The notes beneath the pieces are model-generated. The model had not been told where the DNA came from. It searched no databases and saw only the letters and a program-made list of their open reading frames with translations. The position numbers were made by a program, and so were the translations under genes. Source: a virus (lineage: Duplodnaviria; Caudoviricetes). Taken from it: 54,215 bases of DNA. Each line of letters begins with the position of its first letter. The stretch's first letter is position 1. Below, piece by piece: positions 5,750 to 26,921 of the stretch. The stretch is from positions 1 through 54,215 of IMG/VR virus record IMGVR_UViG_3300010151_000016. The stretch is one strand, 5' to 3'.

Positions 5750-7333
5750 ATGGTTACTGAAGCACAAAAGAAACGACGAGATCACAGACGCTTAAAGACG
5801 TATTCAAAGATCGGGCAAGCCCTGAAATGGAATATCGGACAGGGTGACGTCGACACTGGCGGGATGTTGGTCGGCGACGGACACCCCGGTATTGCCGGAA
5901 TTATGGCTGTGCGTGACGCGCTTGGCGGTTTCGATCTAGGTGGAGAGCTTGAAGCTCGATATGCGGGCATGACCCGTACATCAGAGCACGGGGCGCACGG
6001 CTTCGGTGACGAGGGTGAGGGTGATGGGATTGTACGTATCACCGCATCGATTCGTACTCCATCAGGTGTCAAAGTCCATTTCGACGTGCCGTTAGTCATC
6101 ACAGCAGGTCGGATCTTGCCCCCTAGCGTCCTCGTCCATGAGGGCACACCTCACATTCTCGCACAATCGACCTTTGATGCATTAGTCATGCCAGGAACGT
6201 TTCATCAACCGATTCCGAGACGGTCTACAATGTATTCGCCTGACGAGGCGGAAGGTGCGCAAGAGTCTGTCGTTCGACCCAAGACGCATTTGTACACCGT
6301 CGCTCGACTGGGCGGAAAGACCGCTGATGCCGAAGAATATATCGATCCTGCGGAACGCGAGTGCGAGTCGTTTTGTGTCGGTAGCGAAAAGAAACTCATT
6401 GAGGATTGTCGAGTAAGTGATCGAGGAGGTCGAACATATGACCTCTCAAAAGGATTCAAAGTCAAGATTCTCAAGGATATGTCAGGCGATGGATCGCAGT
6501 ACGAAGTCAAAGACGAAGACGGTGACATTTTTGTCATACCTGGCAAGTCCCTTACGAAGCAGGGCTCCCGAGAGGTAGCTCCCAAGCGCCCTTTTGACCG
6601 GACGGCAGCCGATCCTGAAGAAGGTGGTCCTATGGTAGTAGGAGGCACGCCGCCTTCAGTGGAAGAACTACAGCAACAGTCTGAAGCCATAGGCGGCCTC
6701 CAAGAATCCATACAACAGTTTGAGGAAGGTAGAGAACCAAGTCCCGATGAGGCTCCTCCTATGCAGCCCGAAACCGCAGACATGTCAGGGGTAATTGGAC
6801 AGGATGTCAGCCCAGATTTGAAGACCGTGAGCGGGGCCTTTGCAACTGCCAAGCTGCCTCTCCCATTGAAATTTACGTTTGCAGAAGTAGGTCAAGCGGT
6901 TGAAACAAGAGAAGGTGGACAGCACGCAGAGGTTGGAGATGCAATCATGACGGGCACAGAGGGCGAACGGTGGCCTATTCCTCGACAAACCTTTGAGGAA
7001 ACCTATGATGTATTAGAGCCCGGAGTAGCAGCGAAAAAAGATATTCCCGTACATGCTAAGCAGATGGACGAGCCCTTTTCAGTGAAACCACCTTGGTCCG
7101 ACACGGCGCTGCAAGGAGAAGCAGGAGATTATCTGGTTCAGTACGGTCCAGGTGATTACGGCACTGTTGGGCGGGAGATATTTGGGAAAACATACAAACA
7201 AGGATCTCGTGAGGAAGTGTTCGGTGCGCCTGATGAAAGAGAAACTGCGCTCGAAGCTGAGCGTCATCTGCTAACACGGGATGATACTGTACGTGCGCCT
7301 CCAGATCGGCAGGACACGTCAGTTAATGAGTAG
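5750..7333 (+). CDS. Putative head-associated multidomain protein with a C-terminal PGDYG-family domain
   Basis: The C-terminal part reads GDAIMTGTEGERWPI...TFEETY...GDYLVQYGPGDYGTV...IFGKTY. Start moved from 5729 to ATG 5750, which has a GAGG SD. Acidic linkers contain KTAD, KQGS and RTAA motifs. Confidence 0.7.
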   Translation: MVTEAQKKRRDHRRLKTYSKIGQALKWNIGQGDVDTGGMLVGDGHPGIAGIMAVRDALGGFDLGGELEARYAGMTRTSEHGAHGFGDEGEGDGIVRITASIRTPSGVKVHFDVPLVITAGRILPPSVLVHEGTPHILAQSTFDALVMPGTFHQPIPRRSTMYSPDEAEGAQESVVRPKTHLYTVARLGGKTADAEEYIDPAERECESFCVGSEKKLIEDCRVSDRGGRTYDLSKGFKVKILKDMSGDGSQYEVKDEDGDIFVIPGKSLTKQGSREVAPKRPFDRTAADPEEGGPMVVGGTPPSVEELQQQSEAIGGLQESIQQFEEGREPSPDEAPPMQPETADMSGVIGQDVSPDLKTVSGAFATAKLPLPLKFTFAEVGQAVETREGGQHAEVGDAIMTGTEGERWPIPRQTFEETYDVLEPGVAAKKDIPVHAKQMDEPFSVKPPWSDTALQGEAGDYLVQYGPGDYGTVGREIFGKTYKQGSREEVFGAPDERETALEAERHLLTRDDTVRAPPDRQDTSVNE

Positions 7334-9317
7334 TTATTTCAACACTCTGAAGACTGCGGTTGGTGGTGCGATTAACATTGATGGATCGGCTAACAAGGTA
7401 GTCGATAAAGAACTCGCAGACATAAGAGTCAGTGCGCCCAACGCAATCGAATGGATTGTTGGGCGGGACTGGTGCAACGTACCTTCGACATACAAAATGT
7501 GGAGACAGTACGAATGTATCCGCGATGTCTTTCAGCTTCGATGCCCCATCTGCAATTCGGGCGACGGCTCATGTTGGGGCAAAACACAAACAGAACTAGA
7601 GGATGAACTCCTTCTCGTTTGGTCTGAAGACTTTCAAGAAGACGTCTGCCCGAAGTGTAATACTACTCGGTCACAACTCACCGAAGACGAAATCGTAAAA
7701 TCGTATAATATGCTCCATGCTGTCGTCGGGATGCGCAGCGGCAAGAGTGTCATGGCAGGGCTCATAGGAACCTACGTCGAACACAAGTGCTTGTCCTTAG
7801 CTTGGAACCATCCAGAGGGATTGCAGGGCTATCTCGACATGCCTGCTGCGGAGCAACTAGAGATAACGTTTCTCGCTTCTACAGATACACAGAGCTTCGA
7901 TACCATCTGGGCGAAATACCGAAACTATCGCGCAGCTTCGCCTTGGTTCAGAAAAGCAATCCCTTGGATTAAGGGCCAAGAAACGTCGCAGGCAACTCCA
8001 CCGGGTATGAAGCCTTGGCGTTATGATGAAGGTGACAAGCGAATACGCAACGAAATGCCAGGTGTCCGTCTGACCACAAATTCATTGAATTCAAACTCGG
8101 GCGGAATCGTAGGTCGTACACGTATCGGCTCATTTGCAGATGAGATCTCTCGCATGAAACAGACAGAGTCCGCACAGTCTGCATCTGAAATCTATCGAGG
8201 TCTCGAAAACTCTTTACGTACTGTGCGCTCATGCGCTCGGCGTGGCAACCTACTCCCGTGGCTGGGACTTATGGTGAGCGTGTCGAGCCCGATTAGCGAC
8301 GAAGACAAGGGCATGGAACTTTTGCGAATCGGTCAGTCTGGTCGTGTGAAAGGTATGATGGCTATCCATTCCGCGACCTGGAATTTCAACCCACTGGAGC
8401 CACGGGAGCATTTCGATGACGAATTTGCGAAAGATCCGGTGGGTGCTGAGCGTGATTTTGGCGCACACCCTCCGAAAGCTGCGCATCCTTTGATCCATGA
8501 CGAAGAAAGGTTTATCACATCGTCTATTGATCATGAGGCAGAACAATCCGCTACGCTGTCTACGATTACATTCGACGACGATCTCGGACAAAGTTATGTG
8601 GCCCCACAACTGGATTCATGTAGCCTCGTGCTCGATCATGCGCCTCGCTATGTTGCGTGTGATGCAGGTAAGAATTTCGATGCGTTCGCGATTGCGTGTG
8701 CCCATGGAGAGCAGCGCGGAAGTACATGGGTAACAGTGTTTGATTTTGTGTATCGCATTGTTCCGCCGAAAGGCACTGAAGTCCACTTCGATAGCTTCTA
8801 TGATGTCTTGGGTAAGCTACGCGATAAGATGCCTATCGTACAGGTAGAGTTCGACCGCTGGAATTCAATTCACTTAATCCAAAAGCTACGGCAACTCGGT
8901 GTTCGATCTGAACAAGTGTCTACGAAAACAAAAGACTTCCTGAATTTCGCGCAAGACGCTATGATTGGACGTGTTGCATTACTGCCACCAACTGAAGCCG
9001 ACGAGTCTGCCGAACCACCCTTGATGTCAGGCGCGGGTGTTGCGTTGTACGAATTGCAACGTCTCGAACGCGATCCTGTTTCCGACAAAGTATTCAATCC
9101 GCGAAAGGGGGAACGTCGCGGCTATAACTCAGACGACACCGCACAAGTCATCGTCCACTGCCACAAAATGATCCAGGGCCTAGGATACACCAAGAAAGCT
9201 GAAGACCGAACGAAATCTGCGCGAAGGGCTCGCGCCGAGGCCGGAAGTCTTCAGTGGGAAGGACAGCTTCACCGCGTACAGCAGCGTGGGGGAACAAGCA
9301 TGGGACGAGGTTGGTGA
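7326..9317 (+). CDS. terL: Terminase large subunit
   Basis: Walker A VVGMRSGKS, Walker B SFADEISR, and RNase H-like nuclease motifs YVACDAGKNFD, EFDRWNS and SDDTAQ. Lies upstream of the portal. ATG 7326 overlaps the end of the upstream gene. Confidence 0.9.
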   Translation: MSSYFNTLKTAVGGAINIDGSANKVVDKELADIRVSAPNAIEWIVGRDWCNVPSTYKMWRQYECIRDVFQLRCPICNSGDGSCWGKTQTELEDELLLVWSEDFQEDVCPKCNTTRSQLTEDEIVKSYNMLHAVVGMRSGKSVMAGLIGTYVEHKCLSLAWNHPEGLQGYLDMPAAEQLEITFLASTDTQSFDTIWAKYRNYRAASPWFRKAIPWIKGQETSQATPPGMKPWRYDEGDKRIRNEMPGVRLTTNSLNSNSGGIVGRTRIGSFADEISRMKQTESAQSASEIYRGLENSLRTVRSCARRGNLLPWLGLMVSVSSPISDEDKGMELLRIGQSGRVKGMMAIHSATWNFNPLEPREHFDDEFAKDPVGAERDFGAHPPKAAHPLIHDEERFITSSIDHEAEQSATLSTITFDDDLGQSYVAPQLDSCSLVLDHAPRYVACDAGKNFDAFAIACAHGEQRGSTWVTVFDFVYRIVPPKGTEVHFDSFYDVLGKLRDKMPIVQVEFDRWNSIHLIQKLRQLGVRSEQVSTKTKDFLNFAQDAMIGRVALLPPTEADESAEPPLMSGAGVALYELQRLERDPVSDKVFNPRKGERRGYNSDDTAQVIVHCHKMIQGLGYTKKAEDRTKSARRARAEAGSLQWEGQLHRVQQRGGTSMGRGW

Positions 9318-11143: not shown

Positions 11144-11925
11144 AAAGTCATATAGTAGAACCGGGAGTCGAGGATAAACCGGCAGCGATGAAATCCCGGT
11201 TACGGTATGAACACACTACGACTATCGCCGATCCTCTTTCGAAGGGCGTAGGTAATGACGGTGTGGGTGGCCCTGATGCAGAAGCGCGTCGTGTCGAAGG
11301 TGACATGGGAGAAAGCATAACGAGCTTGACCGATGAGCCACGGGGCAGTCGCGCTACAGATGGACCTGTACTGGGACCGAGATCTGAAAGTCAGGACGAA
11401 GAAACGGTGCGTATGGGGCAGAAAGTTTCTCCCATGATTGCCATTGACCTCGACGGCACCATATTGGATGAGATCGATGTTGATACGAGCGAAGGTGAAT
11501 TTGGCGCACCGATACCAGGCGCAATCGAAGCACTTGGCGCACTCAAGGACTTAGGCTGGAAAATCATTATATGGACGGCTCGGCTCTCTTTCGCTCCTGA
11601 CGAAGACACACGAGACGAGTGGATCGAGGAAATCGCAGAGTACCTAGGTAGTCAGAACATACCCTTTGATGATATTGCAATTGAGAAGCCTCCCGCCGAC
11701 GTGTTCATAGATAACAAGCAAGTTGTGCAATTCGATGGAGACTGGGATGAGGTTGTTAGAATCGTGACACAGCAATATGTAGAGCGTCCAGATGCGGGAT
11801 TGACCGAAGAAGGCGAGATTGTCGCTGCTTTCGGTGGGTTTGGTCTAGGTGACGATCAGTATCAACGCGGGTCCGACAACTTAGGTGTCACACGACATCG
11901 GGACAGAGCGTACTATGAAGATTAA
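11131..11925 (+). CDS. HAD-superfamily phosphatase-like protein with an acidic disordered N-terminus
   Basis: IAIDLDGTI (DxD motif I), IIIWTAR (motif II) and EKPPADVFIDNK (motifs III/IV). Confidence 0.8.
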   Translation: MRRIKSHIVEPGVEDKPAAMKSRLRYEHTTTIADPLSKGVGNDGVGGPDAEARRVEGDMGESITSLTDEPRGSRATDGPVLGPRSESQDEETVRMGQKVSPMIAIDLDGTILDEIDVDTSEGEFGAPIPGAIEALGALKDLGWKIIIWTARLSFAPDEDTRDEWIEEIAEYLGSQNIPFDDIAIEKPPADVFIDNKQVVQFDGDWDEVVRIVTQQYVERPDAGLTEEGEIVAAFGGFGLGDDQYQRGSDNLGVTRHRDRAYYED

Positions 11926-14083
11926 AACATTTAGCCAATACGGTGATGTGCGGAAACAAGCAGCGAGCGATCCTGTAGATCTCCCACACGGACTGACTTC
12001 TGCACAACACGAGGACATCGCACAGAAGTTCGCGTCGATGGAGCCCAAGCTCGTATCGGCGGGAAGCGCAACACGCATGGACGTCTTATCAGATAAGGGT
12101 CTTTTGCCTGACGGCGCATCATGGACACGTAGCGCATCAGAGTTGGGCGGTACGAGTAGCAGCATCGGCACTGGTGGTAACGTCATGACGAACCAGATGC
12201 CGTACCAGCCTGAGTTCAGTTCCCCAGACCGCCAGCAATATCCGGTTCATCGCCTCCTTGCGAACCGATATTGGCGACTGTTTCACAAAATGGACCCGGT
12301 TATCGGTACTGCGGTTGATATGATTTCAGACATGCCGTGGTCTAACTTCGAGCTTTCTGGTATTGGCGTCGACGGCGAAATCAAAAACGGATTCGAGGAT
12401 ATGTGCAGCGAGGTAAAACTTCGTTCCTTGTTGCCGTACTTTATTCGCGAATACCTCGTTGTCGGTGAGGCATGTCCTCACATGTTTTATGATGAGAGCA
12501 CGGGCGGTTGGTCACACATTACTCTTTTGAATCCAGATCAATTAGAGATCATAGACACACCGTTTATCAAGATGGATGCCGTCGCTGAGTTCGTTCCTGA
12601 TGATCGGTTACGCAACGTTCTCACGTCTACGAATCCAATGCTAAAGCCTATTCGAGATTCGCTACCCGCAGAACTCGTCTCAAAATTAGTCGCGAGACAA
12701 AACATACCATTGTCTTCAGTGAACTTCACGCATCTCCCCAGGAAGTTGCATCCATATGATGTTCGAGGCACTTCTATCATTACGCGCATGTGGAGAGCGT
12801 TGTTCCTAGAAGACGCAATCTTCAGTGCAACGATTACAACTGCACGAAGACAAGCGTCTCCGCTCAAAGTAGCGAAGCTCGGTGATCCGGCGACAGGTTG
12901 GATTCCCGGTCCAGAACAGCAAAGCCGCTTCTTGCAACTTTTGGCTCAAGCTGAATTAGATCCCGCTGCTTGGATCTGTTACAACTACGGACTCTCCTTC
13001 GAACTCGTTGGCGTACAAGAACGCGTAATGATGATTGATCGACATTGGGAGACTATCGAACGTATCAAACTGGTCGCACTCGGTATTAATAAAGGATTCC
13101 TGCACGGAGAAGTAACGTATGCAAGTTCTGCTGCGGGACTTACAGTCTTCTTGCAACGACTCCGTGCGTTACGTGAGCACTTTGAAAACGCGTGGCTATA
13201 TCCAAAGTTCTTCAAGCAAGTTTCGGAGATGAACGGCTGGATCATGCCGAAGACCGCAGAGGTCTCGGGTCCGGGTCCGTATGTTAGAACGCGCAGGTCT
13301 GCACAGGAACTTCGTGAAGACAATCGTTACATCGTACCCAAAATCGAATGGGACAGAAGTCTCGATCCTTCGGTCGATGGGGAGATGATTAATGCCATGA
13401 ACAATCTGTCCAGCCTCGGAATCAAGTTCTCCAAGACAACGCTCATGGCAACAGTGAACCGTGACTATGAGGCCGAACTTCACCAGATGGCCGCTGACGC
13501 GAAGTTAGAGCAAGAAGTTATCGCAGACAACCCAGAGCTTATGATGGCGCTGAGTGGCGGTGAAGAAGCTGAGGGCGGTATGGGTGGCGGTATGGGTGGC
13601 GGGCCGGTCATGCCAGGAATATCGCCAAGCGACATGGGACTTGGTGACGAACCATCGCTAGAAGGTCCGCCAATGGAAGAAGGTCCGCCAATGGAAGAAG
13701 GATTAGGCGCGTCCGCAGAGGAAGGTGCCGAGCACACTAAGCAAAAGACGCGAAATAGTAAAGAAGACAGTCACGCAGATAACTTGGTTTTCGCGATAGA
13801 GACGGGGAACATAAGCGAACTCAAAGACGACCCCATATTCGGGGAATTTTTCACAGAGAAATCCGAGGAAGGAATTAAGTTTAGTGGAGACGGACAAGAG
13901 GACTGGGTACAAGTATATGATTGGTTAGTTCAGAGGGGCTGGCCCGATGAAGACTTGCGTCAGTTTGAGGCTATCCTCATAAAACGGGGTATTTTACCTA
14001 AACAAGCGTTTAGTGATGAGCTTCGTGGAATAGAGGCCCAACTATCCGTAAATTCTAAAGATTCTGGCTTTTACGTAGGCTAG
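11915..14083 (+). CDS. Portal protein
   Basis: Lies between terminase and protease. Portal-like segments DPVIGTAVDMISDMP, REYLVVGE, YDVRGTSII and ALGINKGFLHGEVTYAS, followed by an acidic Gly/Pro-rich tail. Confidence 0.85.
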   Translation: MKIKTFSQYGDVRKQAASDPVDLPHGLTSAQHEDIAQKFASMEPKLVSAGSATRMDVLSDKGLLPDGASWTRSASELGGTSSSIGTGGNVMTNQMPYQPEFSSPDRQQYPVHRLLANRYWRLFHKMDPVIGTAVDMISDMPWSNFELSGIGVDGEIKNGFEDMCSEVKLRSLLPYFIREYLVVGEACPHMFYDESTGGWSHITLLNPDQLEIIDTPFIKMDAVAEFVPDDRLRNVLTSTNPMLKPIRDSLPAELVSKLVARQNIPLSSVNFTHLPRKLHPYDVRGTSIITRMWRALFLEDAIFSATITTARRQASPLKVAKLGDPATGWIPGPEQQSRFLQLLAQAELDPAAWICYNYGLSFELVGVQERVMMIDRHWETIERIKLVALGINKGFLHGEVTYASSAAGLTVFLQRLRALREHFENAWLYPKFFKQVSEMNGWIMPKTAEVSGPGPYVRTRRSAQELREDNRYIVPKIEWDRSLDPSVDGEMINAMNNLSSLGIKFSKTTLMATVNRDYEAELHQMAADAKLEQEVIADNPELMMALSGGEEAEGGMGGGMGGGPVMPGISPSDMGLGDEPSLEGPPMEEGPPMEEGLGASAEEGAEHTKQKTRNSKEDSHADNLVFAIETGNISELKDDPIFGEFFTEKSEEGIKFSGDGQEDWVQVYDWLVQRGWPDEDLRQFEAILIKRGILPKQAFSDELRGIEAQLSVNSKDSGFYVG
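13574..13701 (+). repeat. In-frame tandem repeats in the portal C-terminal linker
   Basis: GGCGGTATGGGT x2 from 13574, and GAAGGTCCGCCAATGGAA x2 plus GAAGG at 13661-13701, encoding GGMGGGMG and EGPPMEEGPPMEEG. Confidence 0.85.
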
Positions 14084-14146: not shown

Positions 14147-14308
14147 ATGGCAATTGAAGAAGGCTTTCGTCGTACCGGAACTGCCGAAAATTCTACATTA
14201 GGTTTAGTGTCATTGGACACGGACGATTCGCCTTCGCCGTCCCAGTCCCAGATCGATTCGTCAAGCGATGACGAGACTAAAGAAGAAGAAGACGAGCAAG
14301 ATAAATGA
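14147..14308 (+). CDS. 53-aa acidic peptide absent from the ORF track
   Basis: MAIEEGFRRTGTAENSTLGLVSLDTDDSPSPSQSQIDSSSDDETKEEEDEQDK*. Its stop overlaps the protease ATG (ATGA), and it is preceded by ATTTATAG (14134-14141). Confidence 0.6.
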   Translation: MAIEEGFRRTGTAENSTLGLVSLDTDDSPSPSQSQIDSSSDDETKEEEDEQDK

Positions 14309-17070
14309 GCTTCTATAAAATCGGCAAAGTTGAATCGCTCGCGACGTATGACGTAGATAGCGAAGGTCATATTCGATCTGCGGCACAAGATTCCGATTCA
14401 CCTAACCGTTCTTATTATGCAGACGGTGCGCGAAAGATCGATGTGAACGCTATCCTCGAACGTGCTGCATCGAAATTCGATATTTCAGCCGACCCCAAAG
14501 ATTACTTGTTTGAAGCGATTCGAGCAAACACAACCAATATACCAAACGAGAACGAAGACGCATTTCATCGCGAGGAACTTCTCCGCTTCGACCGTCGTGA
14601 AGGTATGCCGGTCTACATGTCTTATACCGGAAAACCGCATCACGTAAATCACAAGACGGATAATCCGAAGACTGCACGAGGCGTTATCCTCGACGCACAC
14701 TACAATGATGACGCACCCTCTATCGCTTCTTGTCCTGGTTGCGCGTCAGACACACTAGACAAACGCGCTCGTGATGAGAGTGGTATTCATTGTCTGAAGT
14801 GTGGTGCAACAGTAAAAGACGAGTTCGTAGAGATCTTGGTCGCTGTTGACACGAGAAAAGATCCAGTATTCGCTAAAGGTGTGAGAACAGGTCAGCTAAA
14901 AGCTGGCTCAATGGGCTGTAATTGTGCGCGTACACAATGTAACGTTTGCGACCATATCGCCTACTCTCAACCGGAATTCTGCGAACACATTCGCGGAGGC
15001 AACAAAGGTACACTGTGGGCTAAATCAGCACGTGGACAATGGCAACGGGTAGAAAAGCGTTCTGCTGAACATACTCTCAAAAGGGCAGGCACGAAGTTGT
15101 CACCAGATTTTTGTTATGCGAAAGTCGGTGGCGTTGAGATTCGTAAAGCCTTTGAGCGATGTCAGGGCGTACAGTTCGACGAGTATTCTCGCGTTCATCA
15201 ACCTGCCGATCCAAAAGCAACGTCGATTGAAGTTCTACAAGCCACTGCTTCTGCATCAACGTCCTTAGAAACTGAGTCGGAACTTCTACTGCTGAAGACG
15301 CGGCTTGCTAAATTGGAGAGCAAAGTAGCTATGAAAAAAACAGCAGATGAAATTCCTCCCGGCCTGCCGCCGATGGAAGCAGACAAGACCGCAGACGAGT
15401 ATAGCTATGAAACCCCAGAAGGCGAGCACATCGTAGTCGCACCGAATCCCGATGGTGAAGGCGTTGTTATTGGACCAGAAGGAGTAAGTAGCGAACTACC
15501 TGAAGACGAATTGGCCCCCTCTATGGGCATTGATGAGTATCAAGAAGAACAACTTCCAGAGAACTCAACCGGAGAAGAGTTAGGTCTCGATCTTGGTGGC
15601 CCGTCTGAACCTGCACCTGAATCTATTGAAGATTCCCCACTTCCACCACCCCCAACAAGACGATCACCCCCGGTAGCTCCGGGTATGAGACAAGGAGCGC
15701 GTATGTTCAAGAGCAGTTACAATAAGTGGACTGTTGAAGTCACTGAGCGCGGAAATGCTCGCGTCATCGCCCCAGAAGGTGCAGTGATGTTGATCCGCGC
15801 TCGTCAAGCAAAGAAAACTGCAAGTAAGAAGGATTTTGGTAAAGAGATCTTATCGAGCTTGTTCGACGGTGGTCTCGTGAAGACTGCCAAAAAATACAAG
15901 GCGTTGATTTCGCCACGATTCGCAAGTATCACAGCCGATCCAATCGGCGATATGTCAATCAAACGTAGCGAACCTACGAATCCCGTTTCTGCTGGTGGCG
16001 ACTGCGATCAAAAAGATGGCTGTCCTCCCGCTTATTCCGGTCAATCTGCGACTGATGGTGGTGAAAGTGATGGACCTGAACGTGGAACCGGTGATTCTGT
16101 AACTGAAGCAGGTCATGCCGATCACGATAATAGAGGAGATGCAGCTACCAGTGCCCTCGAAGGTGGTATCACAGACGGACCTGAACACAAAAAGGTGAAC
16201 GTCGGAAAGGATACTCCGCTTGCAGATCCAGTGAATGATCGGGCTGCTTCGTATATCGGACGGCGCGTAGCCGCAAAAAGCTGGGCCAACGCTGACGCAG
16301 AAACGCTTCGAGAAGAAAGCTGGCTCGTAACCAAACGAGACGCTTCAGCGGATATGTACACACTTCGACGTGGTGAGGACACTTGTGAGATCGGAAACGA
16401 TGACCTCCAAGCTGCCTGGATCATGCTCGATAAGGTTGCGTTGCCTACCAGTAAAGTCGAAGATCGACTGAAGAAAATTCATGCTGCGCGAATCGCGAAG
16501 CTAGAAGATCAACAAAACGAGGCCGTGGAAGCTGGCATTTCTAAATTCATTCGAGCGTTGAAACTCGTTGCGGCTCGTCAAGCAATCAACGTAGAAGACG
16601 CACCGTTGAAAGAATCGTTAGGTGTCGCTCTCTCGAACGCTCGCGAAGTAGGTCGCGATGTCCGCACTGGACACTCGATCACCTACGAAGCCATGCCTGA
16701 AGATCTTGCTGTGCATCTCATTGAGTCTGCATGGAAAGATGGCGGTGATACCCACATCGACCAATTACTCTCTCGCGCTGCCGACCTTGCTGGACGCAGT
16801 GACGAATACTTGGCTGATGCCGAAGCTGACTTGTCAGCACGGCAGGGGTCACATCGCATCGCAACACTAACGTACAAAGAACAAGTCAGTTCTGAAGAGC
16901 GTCGAGCGGCAAGAATCCGCGAAGAAGCTCTTACAGGAAACTTGCAACTCAACACCTCGTCATCGGTAACGACTCCGGTTCCATCGAATGGGCACAATAA
17001 ATCTGCGTCTATTCGGGGAGCCTTGTCTAATACGAAGGCGGGCTTAATCAAACGTCAGTTCCAGTCCTGA
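14305..17070 (+). CDS. Prohead maturation protease (HK97/assemblin-like fold) fused to a scaffold-like C-terminal region
   Basis: NENEDAF...KPHHVNH...RGVILDA...GSMGC...DEYSRVHQPADPKA in the N-terminal third, then a long acidic and coiled-coil region. Lies between portal and capsid genes. Confidence 0.8.
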   Translation: MSFYKIGKVESLATYDVDSEGHIRSAAQDSDSPNRSYYADGARKIDVNAILERAASKFDISADPKDYLFEAIRANTTNIPNENEDAFHREELLRFDRREGMPVYMSYTGKPHHVNHKTDNPKTARGVILDAHYNDDAPSIASCPGCASDTLDKRARDESGIHCLKCGATVKDEFVEILVAVDTRKDPVFAKGVRTGQLKAGSMGCNCARTQCNVCDHIAYSQPEFCEHIRGGNKGTLWAKSARGQWQRVEKRSAEHTLKRAGTKLSPDFCYAKVGGVEIRKAFERCQGVQFDEYSRVHQPADPKATSIEVLQATASASTSLETESELLLLKTRLAKLESKVAMKKTADEIPPGLPPMEADKTADEYSYETPEGEHIVVAPNPDGEGVVIGPEGVSSELPEDELAPSMGIDEYQEEQLPENSTGEELGLDLGGPSEPAPESIEDSPLPPPPTRRSPPVAPGMRQGARMFKSSYNKWTVEVTERGNARVIAPEGAVMLIRARQAKKTASKKDFGKEILSSLFDGGLVKTAKKYKALISPRFASITADPIGDMSIKRSEPTNPVSAGGDCDQKDGCPPAYSGQSATDGGESDGPERGTGDSVTEAGHADHDNRGDAATSALEGGITDGPEHKKVNVGKDTPLADPVNDRAASYIGRRVAAKSWANADAETLREESWLVTKRDASADMYTLRRGEDTCEIGNDDLQAAWIMLDKVALPTSKVEDRLKKIHAARIAKLEDQQNEAVEAGISKFIRALKLVAARQAINVEDAPLKESLGVALSNAREVGRDVRTGHSITYEAMPEDLAVHLIESAWKDGGDTHIDQLLSRAADLAGRSDEYLADAEADLSARQGSHRIATLTYKEQVSSEERRAARIREEALTGNLQLNTSSSVTTPVPSNGHNKSASIRGALSNTKAGLIKRQFQS

Positions 17071-17101: not shown

Positions 17102-17854
17102 ATGGGTTCTCAAGGTTTAACCAGCGGTCGTCTCGCTGCCTTCCAGTCCGATGTTTTTGCTTCGGGACTGGATCTTGGCAGATGTGAGATTATCCGTAAT
17201 TTAGGTGTCTACAAAGCAGCAGATGCCGCAACTATTCGACAAGGTATGCTTGTCAAACTTGACGCAAGTGGTGAATTGGTCGCTTGCAATTCTGCGGGAG
17301 AAAAGGCTCTCGGTGTTGCTAAATGGAACAAAGTCACGCTCGGCCTTTTGAAGATCGCTGACGAGGCTTGGATTGCTCCAGCAAACGGCGCAACAACTGC
17401 CTTGTCACGAGCTAACGTCAGCAACGTAACGCTTCGCGCTGCTGTTGGTCACGCTGGTACACGTCTAGGAGAGTTTACTGTCGATGCGGCAACTGGCGTT
17501 ATTACAAACGATGACGCAGACGCCAGCACGTTTGTCGAAGGTACTACGTACTATGCGACGTATAACTCCGAGATGACCGAGACTGATTATCGTTTCCAGG
17601 GGAAGAATTTCTTCAATAACATGGATGACGCGACTATCGCTGAAGGGCGTATGTCAGTTATCCAAGGTCCAGGGACGATTTTCACTACGGAATACGCTTC
17701 TGGGAACTCTACTGCAATGACTATCGGCGCTCCTGTTTATACCACCACAGGTGGTCAATTCACGGCTGTTGCTGGGGGCGCTAACAGTATTGTTGGTCAC
17801 GTAATTCAGTTGCCCACTGCGGCTGATCCATTTTTGGGCGTAACGCTCGCTTAA
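17102..17854 (+). CDS. Head decoration / capsid cement protein
   Basis: Immediately precedes the major capsid gene. Pattern IRQGMLVKL...ALGVA...GAPVYTTTGGQFT...IVGHVI resembles beta-tulip decoration proteins. Confidence 0.7.
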   Translation: MGSQGLTSGRLAAFQSDVFASGLDLGRCEIIRNLGVYKAADAATIRQGMLVKLDASGELVACNSAGEKALGVAKWNKVTLGLLKIADEAWIAPANGATTALSRANVSNVTLRAAVGHAGTRLGEFTVDAATGVITNDDADASTFVEGTTYYATYNSEMTETDYRFQGKNFFNNMDDATIAEGRMSVIQGPGTIFTTEYASGNSTAMTIGAPVYTTTGGQFTAVAGGANSIVGHVIQLPTAADPFLGVTLA

Positions 17855-17872: not shown

Positions 17873-19063
17873 ATGACAGATAAAGTTCTAAATCCTTACA
17901 AGCGTGCCGTTGAAGGTGTGCAGAAGGTCGCGTCTAAACAAGACGAAGCTAACATCGATCCTGCGGGCAATCCCAATCCGCAGTCCTTCCCAGGAAACGA
18001 TCCTAGTGCTATCCGCGCTGCGATCAGTGGAACTGGGCCGGTCTCTGAATCGAACCGTATGTTCGACAAAGAAGGTCAAATCAATGCTTGGGACCAAAAA
18101 GATGCGATGACGCAAATTGCTCATCTGCTTCAAAACGTTACCAAGAACACGGGTTCTACATTCTCGTCGCGTAATGCTTCCACGGTTGCTCCAGAAGAGC
18201 GCCGTAAAGTTTTGGCATCTGCGCTTCAAGATCCAACTGGCGAAGGCTTCGCTATCCTCGGTCAAGAGCTTTTGCTCCCGATCAAGGACATCGTTGACTA
18301 TGAGGGTTGGGCTCGCAAAGTATTGCGTGTTCGCCCCTTGGCTCAAGGTGAATTGTTCCGTATCGCGAAAGACGTCCGTGCAACTGCATGGGTTGTCGGT
18401 CAAGACGGTCAGAGCATCGAAAGCCGGTTGTACGGTAAATACGTTCAGCCGAGTGAGTTCAAGATCACTGCGTATCCCACGGTAGACATCGAAGATATCT
18501 ATCAGATGAACTATGATGTTCTGGATCGTGCGCAAGACACGGCTCGCCAGGAAATCGAACTCGAAGAAGACAAGCGATGCTTGGCTATCCTCGATGCGGC
18601 TTCTACTACGGTGAACGCGACTTCAGCGTTTGGTACTGATGGCGTAGATATCTCTGAAATGGAAGCGGTACGTTATCAGGTTGAACGTCACCGTCTCGTT
18701 TGTGAGAAATTCCTCATCAATCGTCAGGAACTTTCCGACTTGATTAGTCTTGGTAATGCTCTTGATCCTGTGACTCAGCGCGAATTGCTTCTCGCTGGTT
18801 ATGTTGGCACTTTGTTCAACGCACAGGTCATCACCGCTGCTGGTACTGGCGTAGAAGAAGTTGTTCCTGCCGGAACAATTTACGCATGCGCTGGTTCTGA
18901 GTATCTTGGTGAGATGGGCGTTCGTGTTGAATTATTCAGCGAACCTTTCAACAAGTTCTCACATCGTGAGAGCGTGAAAGGCTGGGCGTTTATTGAAATG
19001 GTCGGTTTTGGTATTACCAATCCTCGTGCCGTTGCTAGAATGAAAAAGGTTGGGACTCCGTAG
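17873..19063 (+). CDS. Major capsid protein (HK97 fold)
   Basis: Position after protease and decoration genes, 396 aa, purine-rich SD region. Segments PIKDIVDYEGWARKVL, YDVLDRAQDTARQEIELEED and GWAFIEMVGFGITNPRAVA fit large-phage capsid proteins. Confidence 0.88.
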   Translation: MTDKVLNPYKRAVEGVQKVASKQDEANIDPAGNPNPQSFPGNDPSAIRAAISGTGPVSESNRMFDKEGQINAWDQKDAMTQIAHLLQNVTKNTGSTFSSRNASTVAPEERRKVLASALQDPTGEGFAILGQELLLPIKDIVDYEGWARKVLRVRPLAQGELFRIAKDVRATAWVVGQDGQSIESRLYGKYVQPSEFKITAYPTVDIEDIYQMNYDVLDRAQDTARQEIELEEDKRCLAILDAASTTVNATSAFGTDGVDISEMEAVRYQVERHRLVCEKFLINRQELSDLISLGNALDPVTQRELLLAGYVGTLFNAQVITAAGTGVEEVVPAGTIYACAGSEYLGEMGVRVELFSEPFNKFSHRESVKGWAFIEMVGFGITNPRAVARMKKVGTP

Positions 19064-19077
19064 ACAAATTCTTGTCA

Positions 19078-19111
19078 GACACCGGGTGGTTCGGCGTGAC
19101 CATCCGGTGTC
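19078..19111 (+). other. Strong RNA stem-loop just after the capsid gene, with no U-tract (mRNA 3' stabiliser, attenuator or protein-binding site)
   Basis: GACACCGGGTGGT-N8-ACCATCCGGTGTC forms a 13-bp stem with one G-U pair and is followed by AATTACTAA. Confidence 0.7.
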
Positions 19112-19153
19112 AATTACTAACTCCACGTCGGCGAAACCGGGCGCTATCCTGCG

Positions 19154-20080
19154 ATGCATTGTGTGGTGCATGATAATAAACCAAAACGACCAGGCGACGT
19201 TCTCGTCCTCGATCATCGGAGGCAATTCATTGAATATGTTTCTCCAGCGGTCGCGAGGCGAGCACTCAAGAGTGGGGTTGCCTCAGTCTCTCGTAAAAGT
19301 CCGTTTACAATCATGCTTCCACCAGGAGTGCGACGTTGTCCGCGTCCGCACTCACGCAAGGGAGATAGGACAATGATCAATTTTACTGAATACTTCAAAG
19401 AAGAACGCGATGTGTGGGCACGCTGTCTGGTGCCTGGGCAAGTCGTTATATCGTTTCGCGATTCCACAGGTAGATCTCGTGGTGTGACGATTCCTTACGG
19501 AAAAGATCCCGTAAACTTGTCAGCAACCGCGACCTTTAACGACATAAAGGATTCAGGTAGTGTCCGAAGTTTGTTTTCTGCTGGTGCTCTCATGCTGATG
19601 ACGGTTGAAGAAGTAGAGACCTACTTTGAAGAAAAAGCGAAACGTCGAGGACTCGCAAGCGCGGACGAAGCACGTGCGCAAGCTGCGGAGCGTTACAATA
19701 AAATATATTCTCGACAGAAAATCGGACACGACCTTTCTCGTCCTCCCGCAAGTGCCTCCGTGTTCGATACCGAGGACGGAGAGAAATATGACGGAGTTAT
19801 CCGCGTTGAAGACACAATCACGCCTCGCGTGATGCATTTGTGTCGTCAAGTGGCCTCAGACTTACCAGATAATAACCGCATGCCCGCTAGCGAGCTTTTA
19901 GATGAACTCGAAGCCGTTGAGGGCACTCTCACGCTTGATGACCTGGAATACATCCGGGCTAATGGTACATACCACTCCGTAAAGAAATGGGCTGATGTGC
20001 GATCCCGAGCGAAGATAGAAGCAGATACGGGTGGTGGCATCGAAGATGACATTCCGGCTGAAAGAGTGAAATTACCATGA
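19154..20080 (+). CDS. Post-capsid phage protein with an N-terminal PLMP/RRXRR-like module; probable second start at 19373
   Basis: VLVLDHRRQFIEYVSPAVARRALKSGVASVSRKSPFTIML fits the IscB N-terminal pattern. The in-frame ATG at 19373 has an AAGGGAGA SD. Confidence 0.7.
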   Translation: MHCVVHDNKPKRPGDVLVLDHRRQFIEYVSPAVARRALKSGVASVSRKSPFTIMLPPGVRRCPRPHSRKGDRTMINFTEYFKEERDVWARCLVPGQVVISFRDSTGRSRGVTIPYGKDPVNLSATATFNDIKDSGSVRSLFSAGALMLMTVEEVETYFEEKAKRRGLASADEARAQAAERYNKIYSRQKIGHDLSRPPASASVFDTEDGEKYDGVIRVEDTITPRVMHLCRQVASDLPDNNRMPASELLDELEAVEGTLTLDDLEYIRANGTYHSVKKWADVRSRAKIEADTGGGIEDDIPAERVKLP

Positions 20081-20394
20081 CAGAAACAGCTACAACAGCG
20101 ATGACTGGGCTTTTGGATACAATGGCGCAGGCATACAGCAATCAAGCGTGGGCAGTGCTCGCAGGCGTCGTTTTGATGTTTGTGGTCATGGCCGCACGGA
20201 AATTCGTTCTTCCTGCCTTAGAGCCTACGCACACACGCTGGGTGGCTCTAGGATTGGCTATGGCGACCTCTGTCGGCGTAGGTCTTCAGTCCTCTCAGGA
20301 TTGGTTTACAATCGCTGTGACGGCAATCTCGACAGGCTTAGTGGCAATAGGAAGCTGGGAGACACTCGGAAAGGCGCTGAGGCGCAGTAAATGA
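20077..20394 (+). CDS. Putative holin-like membrane protein
   Basis: 105 aa with about three hydrophobic helices and a basic C-terminus (KALRRSK). Confidence 0.55.
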   Translation: MTETATTAMTGLLDTMAQAYSNQAWAVLAGVVLMFVVMAARKFVLPALEPTHTRWVALGLAMATSVGVGLQSSQDWFTIAVTAISTGLVAIGSWETLGKALRRSK

Positions 20395-20684
20395 AGAGTG
20401 TTTGGGCTTGGTTCGTCGCAAGCGCGTTAGTTGTCCTCGCTGGAGTCTTGTATATCTTCAGAAGAAATGACAAAGCACGACGAACCATTTCCGCTTCTGT
20501 CGCTTATAGACAGAAGACCGAGATCGAAAAGCTCAAGTCGAAACTCGATACGGCGCAAGCTGCCGAAGTCGAGAAGATCAAGGCTAACATCGAAGGACGC
20601 AAGTCCAAGATACGCAAGGCGTTTGGCAACGCGGGGATGGCCCCTGGTGAGATTGTTCGTCGCATGCGCAATCTTTCACTTTAG
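20391..20684 (+). CDS. Membrane-anchored coiled-coil protein (i-spanin-like)
   Basis: N-terminal TM (VWAWFVASALVVLAGVLYIF) followed by a charged helical segment. Follows the holin-like gene. Confidence 0.5.
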   Translation: MKSVWAWFVASALVVLAGVLYIFRRNDKARRTISASVAYRQKTEIEKLKSKLDTAQAAEVEKIKANIEGRKSKIRKAFGNAGMAPGEIVRRMRNLSL

Positions 20685-26538: not shown

Positions 26539-26609
26539 AATCGACCTCCTACTCAACCAAACACACGCACTAACAATGGAACTAAAGATCTGCGTAAAGG
26601 AGGTAGAAA

Positions 26610-26921
26610 ATGGTAAAAGAAATCGAGAAAATAGCTGCTCAGTTAGACGAGGCAGTGAAAATGGCTACAGACCTCCGTCTGCTAATTGTGACACAGCAGC
26701 AAGAACTCGGAACGGTAGCGAAACGTCTCGACGACCTCGAAACGGATGTAACTCAACTCAGAGAACTAACCACAAAAGTAGCACTGATCGAGCAGTCGTT
26801 GAGTCAACTGGAAGACACCAAGAAACGATGGTGGCCTATTATATTAGCGGTGATGAGTAGTGCCCTTCTAGGTGGTAGTGCGCCTGATGTAATCAAAGCC
26901 CTACTTGGAGCCGCTGGATGA
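26610..26921 (+). CDS. Coiled-coil protein with a C-terminal hydrophobic anchor (XhlA-like architecture)
   Basis: AAGGAGG SD, heptad pattern and C-terminal WWPIILAVMSSALLGG. Confidence 0.6.
   Translation: MVKEIEKIAAQLDEAVKMATDLRLLIVTQQQELGTVAKRLDDLETDVTQLRELTTKVALIEQSLSQLEDTKKRWWPIILAVMSSALLGGSAPDVIKALLGAAG

What the first reader, a model, noticed from the sequence alone, without database searches (positions are those of the whole stretch)
19064..20080. Nuclease-free IscB-like PLMP/RRXRR module fused to the post-capsid gene, behind RNA hairpins, with a nested start
Seen in sequence: residues 16-55 (19199-19318), VLVLDHRRQFIEYVSPAVARRALKSGVASVSRKSPFTIML, follow the IscB/IsrB N-terminal pattern V-x-V-L-D...P-A-x-A-R-x-x-L-K-x-G-x-A-x-V...P-F-T-I-x-L. 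The PLMP tetrapeptide itself is replaced, and no RuvC or HNH motifs follow. An in-frame ATG at 19373 has a strong SD, so forms with and without the module are plausible. The 90 nt upstream contain up to three hairpins (19063-19076, 19078-19111, about 19126-19143). Established: the PLMP domain is part of the IscB-omegaRNA ribonucleoprotein. Inference: a domesticated or ancestral RNA-binding module that may bind the capsid mRNA 3' hairpin for autoregulation, or bring an RNA to the virion.
Basis: partly seen in the sequence, partly recalled or inferred. Interest (0 to 1): 0.8.

Follow-up and report, generated by a model that had tools for sequence, protein, structure and literature searches.

The report
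Nuclease-free PLMP domain on phage protein
The gene next to the capsid gene of a large marine phage appears to encode, besides its ordinary product, a longer version carrying the small RNA-hairpin-binding PLMP domain otherwise described only in the IscB/IsrB ancestors of Cas9, here without any nuclease.

Summary
ORF 19154..20080 follows the major capsid gene. Its residues 16-55 are a true homologue of the IscB/IsrB PLMP domain. A profile of 27 phage modules hits TbaIscB at E 1.2e-12 and OgeuIscB at 2.8e-8. The AlphaFold model has four strands and one helix, and Foldseek ranks 1-9 are all IscB/IsrB. No RuvC or HNH follows.

The module is kept in frame in 42 of 44 distinct related ORFs and is under purifying selection (dN/dS 0-0.36). 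An internal ATG with a strong Shine-Dalgarno written into the linker codons is present in 26 of 26 loci evaluated. This points to two nested isoforms: a rare long one with PLMP and a main short one.

The long start sits behind structured leader RNA. Covariation supports that structure in two clade sets, but the structures differ between clades, and the window's own small hairpins have thin support.

RNA binding, and the leader as its target, remain inference by analogy with IsrB, where PLMP holds the terminal hairpins that carry the SD. The body is an uncharacterised phage protein. I found no paper describing PLMP outside IscB/IsrB.

Verdict: a real feature and a new variant of a known kind. 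Interest 0.62.

The parts
17873..19063 (+). Major capsid protein gene (396 aa), upstream neighbour
   Evidence: PHROG 2522 major head protein, E 5.5e-61. 60.7% identical to the Rctr197k homologue.
19063..19076 (+). Small 5-bp stem-loop overlapping the capsid stop codon
   Evidence: RNAfold minimum-free-energy structure. No comparative support was sought.
19078..19111 (+). Strong 14-bp stem-loop after the capsid gene. Probably a leaky terminator or an mRNA-stabilising or processing hairpin.
   Evidence: RNAfold MFE and centroid. A GC-rich hairpin follows the capsid stop in the related loci read. The simple scan did not call it an intrinsic terminator because it has no T-run.
19128..19140 (+). 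Mini hairpin TCGG-CGAAA-CCGG in the leader. Possible counterpart of the GGGY-GAAA-RCCC hairpin of other clades.
   Evidence: RNAfold. The 18-nt motif occurs once in the window, with 0.03 expected by chance. Similar motifs in L001, L030 and L061 were read by eye. The homology to hairpin 3 of clades A-C is my inference.
19138..19151 (+). Alternative mini hairpin CGGG-CGCTAT-CCTG. It overlaps the previous one, so the two are mutually exclusive.
   Evidence: The same stem can form in 6 of 6 sequences of the window's clade (WIN, L001, L030, L059, L061, L064). The innermost pair is G-C, C-G or A-U (read by eye). In 4 of them it is followed by GAGG and a GTG start. Too few sequences for statistics.
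19154..19171 (+). 7-bp hairpin that contains both candidate long-form start codons (ATG 19154, GTG 19166)
   Evidence: RNAfold MFE only; not in the centroid. In clade A a small helix around the long-form ATG has compensatory changes in 2 of 3 pairs.
19166..20080 (+). Long isoform ORF (304 aa from GTG 19166, or 308 aa from ATG 19154): PLMP domain, linker and body
   Evidence: ORF list and translation. GTG-CAT start shared with L029 and L030. No stop between module and body in 42 of 44 distinct related ORFs. Its translation is not shown.
19199..19318 (+). PLMP-like domain (residues 16-55 of the 308-aa form), four strands and one helix
   Evidence: Pfam RRXRR, E 9.5e-5. Profile against PDB: TbaIscB 1.2e-12. 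AF2 pLDDT about 90, strands 16-19, 25-29, 44-47 and 52-54, helix 31-40. Foldseek ranks 1-9 are IscB/IsrB. dN/dS 0-0.36.
19319..19372 (+). Basic, low-confidence linker whose codons carry the SD of the internal start (GGGAG at 19360-19364)
   Evidence: pLDDT 64-76. SD duplex -8.4 kcal/mol. GGAG-type SD upstream of the internal ATG in relatives although the encoded residues differ (GD, RE, EG, RR).
19373..20080 (+). Short isoform ORF (235 aa): the body, an uncharacterised phage protein
   Evidence: This is the only form in the protein database for this contig (P0003). PHROG 17686, unknown function. BFVD structural relatives are all uncharacterised, e.g. PaBG at 6.1e-10.

Best explanation
The gene after the capsid gene is a nested pair of in-frame isoforms.

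Short form. The main product (235 aa, ATG 19373) starts at a strong Shine-Dalgarno that is written into the linker codons.

Long form. A second, probably rarer product (304-308 aa) starts at GTG 19166 or ATG 19154. That start has no SD and lies inside local RNA structure. It adds a 40-residue PLMP domain and a flexible basic linker to the same body.

The PLMP domain. It is a homologue of the N-terminal domain of IscB/IsrB that has lost, or never had, RuvC, the bridge helix and HNH. It is therefore not a nuclease.

Most likely mechanism (inferred). The domain keeps the one nuclease-independent activity known for it, which is gripping RNA hairpins. It would bind the small hairpins of its own leader beside the long-form start. 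That would feed back on synthesis of the long form, or tether the body to this mRNA. Because the two isoforms share the body, they may assemble together, with only a few subunits carrying the RNA-binding arm.

What is shown: homology, fold, absence of nuclease, conservation, purifying selection, the conserved internal SD and ATG, and structured leaders with covariation in other clades.

What is inferred: that both products are made and in what ratio, that the domain binds RNA, what its target is, and that the isoforms co-assemble.

The confidence given (0.5) is for the whole statement including nucleic-acid binding by the module. The anatomy alone I hold at about 0.9, and the own leader as the target at about 0.3.
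For: Homology:
- Pfam RRXRR matches residues 16-56 at E 9.5e-5.
- 31 of 33 family members match it at E<=0.01, best 3.6e-10.
- The module profile hits 8 distinct IscB sequences in the PDB at E<=8.2e-4 (TbaIscB 1.2e-12). DtIsrB is only 0.23.

Fold:
- AF2 gives four strands and a helix at pLDDT about 90. This matches the published description of the IsrB PLMP domain (PMC9581776, passages read).
- Foldseek of the module alone puts IscB/IsrB at ranks 1-9 (prob 0.99-1.00, TM 0.58-0.68, rmsd 1.5-4.1 A) and IF3-N at ranks 10-11.

No nuclease.

Conservation:
- The module is in frame in 42 of 44 distinct ORFs from three scans.
- It is also in frame in Virus Rctr197k, whose DNA is far more GC-rich.
- Module dN/dS is 0-0.36 in the 9 of 16 pairs where it could be computed. 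In one pair the module is identical. In 6 pairs dS is saturated while pN is 0.06-0.34.

Nested start:
- An ATG lies 2-12 codons before the NFTEYF motif in 26 of 26 entries evaluated. 3 of the 29 entries had no regex match and were skipped.
- The internal SD is stronger than the long-form SD in 22 of 25 module-bearing entries, duplicates included.

Leader RNA:
- Clade A: 95% of cells paired, 17 of 23 pairs with double changes, 0 of 500 shuffles as high.
- Clades B/C: tandem hairpins, 86% paired, 8 of 10 pairs with double changes, 0 of 500 shuffles.
- The covariance model finds exactly one site per locus, always just upstream of the PLMP ORF. It gave 12 hits in 238 kb.

Precedent. In IsrB the PLMP domain binds the tandem terminal hairpins of the omegaRNA and contacts the SD just upstream of its own ORF. 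The authors suggest this could regulate expression (PMC9581776). In IscB the terminal hairpins are recognised by PLMP mainly sequence-independently (PMC9640706).

Weak support. One contig from an RNA library covers 19174-19321 without differences.
Against: - No experiment or computation here shows RNA binding.
- In IscB the PLMP tetrapeptide touches RuvC and the omegaRNA. Here it is replaced by the conserved FIEY/FLEY, so that surface may serve another partner.
- In IscB/IsrB the domain binds RNA as part of a rigid PLMP-RuvC-TI scaffold. Alone it may bind weakly.
- Leader structures differ between clades. The clade B/C model does not hit the window, L001, L029, L030 or clade A at E<=10.
- The window's small stems are 3-4 bp, and only six sequences read by eye support them.
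- The L033/L037/L041 clade keeps the module, but I could not see the GAAA-type mini hairpins there (by eye).
- No Rfam family, including HEARO, matches.
- The module was lost at least twice. L010 groups with L033/L037 at 100/99. L080 groups with L075 at 96/96, though both sit on long branches. It is therefore dispensable.
- The long start in the window has no SD, and neither product has been detected.
- No Foldseek E-value reached 1e-3, as expected for a 45-residue domain.
- The RNA-library contig may be contaminating DNA.
Confidence: 0.5

Rival explanations
1. The PLMP domain acts here as a protein-protein module, not an RNA binder. It docks on the body or on another head or assembly protein. 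The long isoform would then be a regulatory or targeting variant of the short one, as in other phage long/short pairs.
For: In IscB/IsrB the domain packs extensively against the RuvC and TI domains. The tetrapeptide at that interface has changed to a new, conserved motif, FLEY/ILSY, which suggests a new partner. Nested in-frame isoforms in phages often differ in regulation or targeting (recalled, not from a call).
Against: The basic helix (A-R-x-x-L-K-x-G) and strand 4 (P-F-x-I-x-L) are the best conserved parts of the module and are shared with IscB. The linker has low confidence, and pTM of the whole model is 0.47 although both domains are confident; I could not inspect the inter-domain error. 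The conserved structured leader is left unexplained.
Confidence: 0.22
2. The domain binds nucleic acid, but the target is not its own leader. It could be another phage or host RNA, or DNA. The leader hairpins would serve only to hold down long-form translation and to process or stabilise the capsid mRNA.
For: Leader structures are clade-specific. The start codon or SD of the long form sits inside small hairpins in several clades, which by itself explains a low-output start. IscB PLMP recognition of hairpins is mainly sequence-independent.
Against: No candidate alternative target was found. The 18-nt leader motif is unique in the 54-kb window, and the hairpin model hits only the leader site in each locus.
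Confidence: 0.2
3. The stretch is a decaying remnant of an IscB-like or HNH homing gene that inserted after the capsid gene. Only the 235-aa protein is functional, and the open frame is chance.
For: Phages carry IscB-like HNH genes: PHROG 2214 'HNH endonuclease' matches residues 16-55 at E 0.004. The gene caller behind the database kept only the 235-aa form. The long start in the window lacks an SD.
Against: The module is in frame and free of stops in 42 of 44 distinct ORFs that have diverged to 28-47% identity. dN/dS is 0-0.36, as low as in the body. The model folds confidently. One clade has duplicated the module in tandem.
Confidence: 0.03
4. The upstream reading frame matters only as a translated leader. 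Ribosomes crossing it would open structure around the internal SD, and the peptide would have no function of its own.
For: The internal SD lies within the long ORF. Coupling effects of this kind are known in bacteria and phages (recalled).
Against: This gives no reason for protein-level purifying selection, a conserved fold or homology to PLMP. The two lineages without the module simply use the same SD and ATG.
Confidence: 0.04

Closest known systems
PLMP domain of the OMEGA nucleases IscB and IsrB (N-terminal part of Pfam PF14239 RRXRR)
   Same: Sequence homology is clear: profile E 1.2e-12 to TbaIscB, and V-x-V-L-D ... H-P-A-R-A-R-K-L-L-K-x-G-K-A-x-V ... P-F-x-I-x-L is almost identical. The fold of four strands plus one helix is the same. 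The domain sits at the very N-terminus, directly behind structured RNA that in several clades carries an SD-like GGGAGG at the base of a hairpin.
   Different: No RuvC, bridge helix, HNH or TI domain. No omegaRNA match. No sign of an IS200/IS605 setting; the neighbours are phage head genes. The PLMP tetrapeptide is replaced (FIEY), although a few relatives keep x-L-x-P (L065, L075, L083). The domain is fused to an unrelated phage protein and can be bypassed from an internal start.
[quoted passage not shown]
   Same: It has the same small alpha/beta fold. It takes ranks 10-11 in Foldseek after IscB/IsrB. The IsrB authors report IF3-N as a remote homologue of PLMP (PMC9581776).
   Different: The match is weak (E 0.2-0.25, TM 0.42, rmsd about 7 A). 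There is no IF3 C-terminal domain and no sequence-level hit.
Nested in-frame isoform pairs of phages (lambda C/Nu3, T7 gp4A/4B, lambda S107/S105); recalled, not from a call
   Same: Two products share a C-terminus. The shorter one starts at an internal start with its own SD inside the longer ORF.
   Different: Here the extra N-terminal part is a PLMP domain. The internal start appears to be the strong one. Neither product has been seen experimentally.
Phage translational operators (MS2 coat protein and the replicase hairpin, T4 RegA, T4 gp32); recalled, not from a call
   Same: The proposed logic is the same: a phage protein binds a hairpin at or near a ribosome-binding site and controls translation.
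   Different: No binding has been shown here. The regulator would be one isoform acting on its own start while the other start escapes.
Uncharacterised body relatives in large myophages (PaBG gp154, Motura, BcepSaruman, phiRSL1)
   Same: The body has the same predicted fold: 12 BFVD hits at E<=1e-3, best 6.1e-10. The family profile matches PaBG gp154 at 9.3e-6.
   Different: These proteins are 196-246 aa, or 588-661 aa in the two autotransporter-named hits. The PaBG match (profile positions 75-283 of 287) does not include the module. In PaBG the gene lies among primase, RuvC-like resolvase and Tpt1-like genes, not beside the capsid gene.

Membership tests
IscB/IsrB (OMEGA RNA-guided nucleases) | N-terminal PLMP domain | tested here: met
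   Profile E 1.2e-12 to TbaIscB. Foldseek ranks 1-9 are IscB/IsrB. 31 of 33 relatives match PF14239.
IscB/IsrB (OMEGA RNA-guided nucleases) | Split RuvC nuclease domain with arginine-rich bridge helix | tested here: not met
   PF14239 matches only profile positions 1-41 of 174, in the protein and in a six-frame search of the record. After residue 56 the protein continues into an unrelated fold. The basic linker (RR, RK) coincides with the purine-rich SD and is not a helix in the model.
IscB/IsrB (OMEGA RNA-guided nucleases) | HNH nuclease domain (IscB only) | tested here: not met
   PF01844 has 0 matches at E<=1 in the 54-kb record; the control rang in 11 of 14 genomes.
IscB/IsrB (OMEGA RNA-guided nucleases) | Cognate omegaRNA (HEARO-type) of 200-400 nt upstream, overlapping the ORF start | tested here: not met
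   No Rfam match at E<=10 in window 18800-19600 or at E<=1 in 10 related loci. Only about 90 nt separate the capsid stop from the ORF.
IscB/IsrB (OMEGA RNA-guided nucleases) | IS200/IS605 setting (TnpA, transposon ends) | not tested
   The neighbours are terminase, portal, protease-like and capsid genes. TnpA and transposon ends were not searched for.
PLMP domain as a fold/domain family | Small beta-sheet plus one helix, about 50-60 residues | tested here: met
   Strands 16-19, 25-29, 44-47 and 52-54, helix 31-40, pLDDT about 90. The module-only model agrees. Published description in PMC9581776.
PLMP domain as a fold/domain family | Conserved P-L-M-P tetrapeptide in strand 2 | tested here: not met
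   F-I-E-Y in the window, FLEY/ILSY in most relatives. Aligned to PLMP of TbaIscB.
PLMP domain as a fold/domain family | Binds RNA hairpins | not testable with these tools
   Known for IscB/IsrB. No RNA-protein prediction tool was on hand.
Nested in-frame isoform genes | Internal in-frame start with its own ribosome-binding site, conserved among relatives | tested here: met
   26 of 26 entries evaluated have the ATG. SD energies run from -4.2 to -12.3 kcal/mol. The SD nucleotides are kept while the encoded residues differ.
Nested in-frame isoform genes | Both products made | not testable with these tools
   The only hint is a contig from an RNA library covering 19174-19321, which may be DNA.

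The most novel reading that the evidence does not exclude
The phage PLMP module and the small hairpins in front of it form a self-contained protein-RNA recognition pair. It would be the nuclease-free counterpart of the PLMP and terminal-hairpin corner of the IscB/IsrB-omegaRNA complex. Phages would then be the reservoir from which OMEGA nucleases took the PLMP domain, or the reverse. The long isoform would use the domain to hold its own mRNA, or a leader-derived RNA, on an oligomer of the body protein. That would couple translation control to head-gene expression or carry RNA into an assembly.
Probability: 0.2. Interest if true: 0.85.

Novelty: new variant of a known kind. Interest (0 to 1): 0.62.

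Why it matters
The structural papers state that the PLMP domain is unique to IscB and IsrB, and they leave its origin open (PMC9581776, passages read). Here it has an independent life:
- a widespread family of large-phage proteins carries it without any nuclease;
- one clade has it in tandem;
- the nearest sequence neighbours include multi-PLMP proteins and 56-71-aa mini-proteins.

This matters in three ways.
1. It gives a simpler natural system for testing what PLMP does on its own. It also gives a comparison set for deciding where the domain in the Cas9 lineage came from.
2. It shows a hidden isoform. The public protein for this contig is only the 235-aa form, so annotation pipelines miss the module.
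3. The conserved internal SD written into a linker, together with a structured, covarying leader, is a clean candidate for isoform-specific translational control in uncultured phages.

Tried and rejected
- Rfam scans found nothing credible. The window 18800-19600 at E<=10 gave six matches at E 3.3-9.5, all far below their gathering scores. Ten related loci at E<=1 gave one snoRNA match at E 0.43. No HEARO/omegaRNA match appeared.
- The covariance model R1, built from the clade B/C hairpins, does not find the window's leader, L001, L029, L030 or clade A. I could not unify the leaders into one family. The idea that the GAAA-capped mini hairpin is shared by all clades is my reading by eye.
- MAFFT misaligned the six leaders of the window's clade by one column. 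I did not run pair counts on that alignment and report only what I read by eye.
- The sigma-70 and terminator scan gave no convincing promoter in the leader and did not call the 14-bp hairpin a terminator. I considered a sigma-54-like TGGCAC in clade B and dropped it, because there was no second element.
- Function of the body remains unknown. Pfam gave nothing. PHROG 17686 is unknown. The PDB sequence profile matched only the PLMP part. A single-sequence hit to tRNA 2'-phosphotransferase at E 0.66 is not significant. Foldseek against the PDB gave only low-probability CRP-like and SOD hits. The ESM Atlas gave only viral hypotheticals and CRP-like rows with TM<0.4. hhalign against PaBG gp078, the gene near its capsid gene, showed no relation. 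The true PaBG relative is gp154. The PaBG paper (PMC7412058, term search only) has no match to the terms gp154-gp156 or RuvC.
- Stand-alone phage-type PLMP mini-proteins (56-71 aa) appear among the nearest representatives. Some lie on contigs of 18-103 kb. Scans of viral contigs with A8, P0031 and P0069 returned only fused forms (L082, L083) or nothing. Whether they are split versions of this gene is open. Many of the other short hits look like fragments of IscB genes.
- Read laying: the DNA contigs of three other runs are identical where they cover the stretch, so they give no variants to analyse. Uncovered parts mean nothing.
- Literature. The search 'PLMP' + 'phage' + 'capsid' found 0 papers. 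The search 'RRXRR' found 32 papers, 20 of them listed; none of the listed titles concerns a phage structural or nuclease-free PLMP protein, and only the listing was read. The search 'PLMP domain' + 'IscB' found 10 papers; I read passages of two. Supplements were not consulted. Supplementary figures of PMC9640706 and extended data of PMC9581776 hold the residue-level PLMP-RNA contacts and could sharpen the comparison.
- Complex prediction: see the last paragraph.
Full report
WHAT IS THERE

The window is a 54-kb fragment of a viral contig, estimated 32% complete. It carries a head module:
- terminase large subunit, 7281..9317;
- portal, 11885..14083;
- a 921-aa protein with a protease-like N-terminus, 14305..17070;
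- a 250-aa protein, 17102..17854;
- the major capsid gene, 17873..19063.

Ninety bases after the capsid stop, ORF 19154..20080 opens (308 aa). The protein database holds only a 235-aa version of this protein, starting at ATG 19373 (P0003).

THE N-TERMINAL MODULE IS A PLMP DOMAIN

- Pfam RRXRR (PF14239) matches residues 16-56 to its first 41 of 174 positions, at E 9.5e-5 and 22.8 bits against a cut-off of 25. PHROG 2214 'HNH endonuclease' matches the same residues to its positions 5-44 of 429 at E 0.004.
- Among 33 aligned family members, 31 match PF14239 at E<=0.01, best 3.6e-10.
- A profile of 27 modules (A3) searched against PDB sequences finds TbaIscB at 1.2e-12. It finds five OgeuIscB-type sequences at 2.4-3.0e-8, OrufIscB at 1.8e-5 and HfmIscB at 8.2e-4, always over the N-terminal PLMP region. 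DtIsrB scores only 0.23.
- AlphaFold2 with the 33-sequence alignment gives strand 16-19, strand 25-29, helix 31-40, strand 44-47 and strand 52-54, at pLDDT about 90. The IsrB paper describes the PLMP domain as a four-stranded antiparallel sheet with one helix, similar to IF3-N (PMC9581776, passages read).
- Foldseek of the whole model against the PDB puts IscB/IsrB at 9 of the first 11 ranks, best E 4.9e-3.
- Foldseek of a module-only model (pLDDT 82.3) puts IscB/IsrB at ranks 1-9: E 1.1e-3 to 0.13, probability 0.99-1.00, TM 0.58-0.68, rmsd 1.5-4.1 A over 42-50 columns, 16-36% identity. IF3-N takes ranks 10-11.
- No Foldseek E-value is below 1e-3, which is expected for 45 residues. The sequence profile carries the statistical weight.
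- The tetrapeptide that names the domain is replaced: FIEY here and FLEY or ILSY in most relatives, aligned to PLMP of TbaIscB. A few relatives keep x-L-x-P (L065, L075, L083).

THERE IS NO NUCLEASE

- Only positions 1-41 of the RRXRR profile match, both in the protein and in a six-frame search.
- Pfam HNH has no match in the record.
- After the module come an 18-residue low-confidence basic linker and a well-folded body (pLDDT about 90) with a disordered insert at 188-217.
- The body has no PDB relative by sequence and no convincing one by fold.
- In BFVD the body resembles 12 viral proteins at E<=1e-3. Ten are uncharacterised; two long ones are named inverse-autotransporter beta-barrel proteins. 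The uncharacterised ones come from large myophages (PaBG, Motura, BcepSaruman) and unnamed or metagenomic entries; phiRSL1 scores only 1.3e-2.
- The family profile finds PaBG gp154. That gene lies among primase, a RuvC-type resolvase and a Tpt1-like gene, not by the capsid gene. So the body cannot be called a structural protein.

IT IS CONSERVED AND UNDER SELECTION

- The only relative in the phage genome collection, Virus Rctr197k, is much more GC-rich and has 36% protein identity. It keeps the same arrangement after its capsid gene: module, linker, internal ATG and body in one frame.
- Scans of viral and metagenome contigs gave 27, 20, 27 and 1 loci, many of them overlapping.
- After removing duplicates I count 44 distinct ORFs, some of them partial (plus L083).
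- 42 carry the module in frame without a stop. Four of these have two modules in tandem (L023, L024/L028, L047, L048), and these form one clade (100/100).
- Two lack the module. L010/L040 groups with the module-bearing L033 and L037 (100/99). L080 groups with L075 (96/96), with a long-branch warning. Loss, twice, is the simplest reading.
- Nei-Gojobori estimates for the 41-42 module codons give dN/dS of 0-0.36 in the 9 of 16 pairs where it could be computed. One pair is identical. Six have saturated dS with pN 0.06-0.34.
- These values are similar to or lower than those of the body. The linker is higher, 0.13-1.24.

THE NESTED START

- In 26 of 26 entries where the script could find the NFTEYF-type motif, an ATG lies 2-12 codons upstream (29 entries examined, 3 without a regex match).
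- That ATG is preceded by GGAG, AGGAG or GGGAGG. In L002 the match is weaker. In L019 the script picked the second of two ATGs.
- The encoded residues differ (G-D, R-E, E-G, R-R) while the purine motif stays. This argues for selection on the RNA.
- SD duplex energies at the internal start run from -4.2 to -12.3 kcal/mol. They are stronger than at the presumed long start in 22 of 25 module-bearing entries, duplicates included. The exceptions are L002, L006 and L022.
- In the window the values are -8.4 (internal) against -2.5 (ATG 19154) and -1.0 (GTG 19166).
- In five relatives of the window's clade (L001, L029, L030, L059, L064) the long form starts at GTG. L061 has a GTG and a later ATG. L029 and L030 share GTG-CAT with window 19166.
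- I therefore prefer GTG 19166, which gives 304 aa.

THE LEADER RNA

The window:
The z-score is -2.81 and 0 of 200 shuffles fold as well.
- A strong GC hairpin follows the capsid gene in the loci I read. In many it is followed by TTTACC or TTAACC (by eye). The window's version has no T-run and is not called a terminator.

Other clades, between that hairpin and the long start:
- Clade A (9 sequences): RNAalifold predicts four helices. 95% of cells are paired, 17 of 23 pairs show double changes, and 0 of 500 shuffles reach this. Slid controls give 38-49% paired. The fourth helix pairs the G of the ATG and the next two bases.
- Clades B and C: two tandem hairpins, with GGGAG(G) at the 3' foot of the first. 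86% paired, 8 of 10 pairs with double changes, 0 of 500 shuffles. That alignment was fitted to the model, which favours the structure.
- The model finds one site per locus, always just before the PLMP ORF: 12 hits in 238 kb on both strands. It finds nothing in the window, L001, L029, L030 or clade A.

The window's own clade:
- It shares the motif AACCGG-N-loop-N'-CCG. In four of six sequences this is followed by GAGG and a GTG. The innermost pair is G-C, C-G or A-U (by eye). The sample is too small for statistics, and MAFFT misaligned it.

Where the hairpins belong:
- In L002 and L006 an extra ORF separates the capsid gene from this gene. All the upstream hairpins, including a large stem followed by a T-rich stretch, lie just before the PLMP gene there.

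No Rfam family matches.

HOW IT PROBABLY WORKS

Published structures show that PLMP in IsrB holds the tandem terminal hairpins SL7 and SL8 of the omegaRNA and contacts the SD just upstream of the IsrB ORF. The authors suggest a role in regulating expression. In IscB the terminal hairpins are recognised by PLMP mainly without sequence specificity.

The phage arrangement has the same three parts in the same order: small hairpins, sometimes with an SD at their foot, immediately before a PLMP-coding start. My best reading is this:
- The long isoform carries an RNA-hairpin-binding arm.
- It is made in small amounts from a weak, structure-embedded start.
- Its own leader is the most likely ligand.

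I hold the anatomy with about 0.9 confidence, nucleic-acid binding with about 0.55-0.6, and the leader as target with about 0.3.

Against this reading:
- The interface tetrapeptide has changed.
- In IscB/IsrB the domain works within a RuvC-TI scaffold.
- The leaders differ between clades.
- One module-bearing clade (L033, L037, L041) lacks the mini hairpins by eye.
- The module has been lost twice.

The main rival is that the module is a protein-docking domain. The complex prediction that might have spoken to this could not be run.

WIDER CONTEXT

A search of 1.84 billion representatives with the module profile finds 2397 proteins at E<=1e-3 and 99 at E<=1e-10. By a crude regex sort of 148 of the best 150, the set holds:
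- this family;
- ordinary IscB-like N-termini;
- many proteins of 80 aa or less;
- proteins made of two or three PLMP repeats (P0062, P0035, P0110);
- tandem-PLMP-plus-body proteins (P0053).

Some mini-proteins with the phage-type motif lie on contigs of 18-103 kb, but their neighbours could not be examined.

One contig from a marine metatranscriptome library covers 19174-19321 without differences. It lies entirely upstream of the internal start and may be DNA.

NOVELTY

I found no paper that places PLMP outside IscB/IsrB. The search 'PLMP' + 'phage' + 'capsid' gave 0 papers. The 'RRXRR' search listed 20 of 32 papers, titles only. The 'PLMP domain' + 'IscB' search gave 10 papers, two read in passages. 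The IsrB paper says IsrB and IscB 'uniquely' contain the domain. The feature is not a member of the IscB family, because the nuclease features were tested and not met. It is a new architectural variant built from a known domain.

Noticed in passing
L023 2689-3927; L024/L028; L047 1767-3017; L048; protein P0053: A high-GC clade of the same family has two PLMP-like modules in tandem before the body. The clade is monophyletic (100/100).
   Followed up: partly
proteins P0035 (191 aa), P0062 (165 aa), P0110 (674 aa): These proteins consist of two or three PLMP-like repeats with no nuclease motif visible by eye. P0035 lies on a 13-kb contig. Nuclease-free PLMP proteins may therefore be a wider class.
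   Followed up: partly
proteins P0027, P0029, P0031/P0172, P0036, P0069, P0071, P0118 (56-71 aa): These are stand-alone mini-proteins with the phage-type F-L-x-Y PLMP motif. Some lie on contigs of 18-103 kb. Their gene neighbourhoods could not be fetched, so it is unknown whether they are split forms of this gene.
   Followed up: partly
L010/L040, L033, L037: In this clade the gene does not follow the capsid gene. The ORF upstream of it looks like a dCMP or cytidine deaminase by eye (PCxxC-type motif; not tested with a profile). L010/L040 has lost the module.
   Followed up: no
L002 2137-2994; L006 2165-2994: An extra ORF lies between the capsid gene and the PLMP gene. It may be a decoration-type protein; this was not tested. 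The upstream hairpins, large stem included, precede the PLMP gene there.
   Followed up: no
L054 (NC_022096 112347-113018, PaBG gp154): The remote homologue of the body in phage PaBG sits beside a RuvC-type resolvase, a primase, a Cas4-like 'CRISPR/Cas system associated' gene and an RNA 2'-phosphotransferase-like gene. This hints that the body acts on nucleic acids rather than in the capsid.
   Followed up: partly
window 1-5736: A very long ORF of at least 1911 aa runs off the 5' end of the contig. It was not analysed.
   Followed up: no
window 25348-31105 and 11131-11925: A cluster of glycosyltransferase genes: two of about 390 aa matching PHROG 2170, and a 949-aa protein with two GT2 domains. 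There is also a phosphoheptose-isomerase-like gene in the head region.
   Followed up: no
window 14305-17070: A 921-aa protein whose N-terminus matches a head maturation protease PHROG (E 2.3e-27). The rest matches a large protein of unknown function. It may be a protease-scaffold fusion.
   Followed up: no
window 20077-20684: Two small ORFs lie directly after the gene. They have weak holin-like (E 0.008) and Rz-like spanin (E 0.0025) PHROG matches, both below any safe threshold.
   Followed up: no
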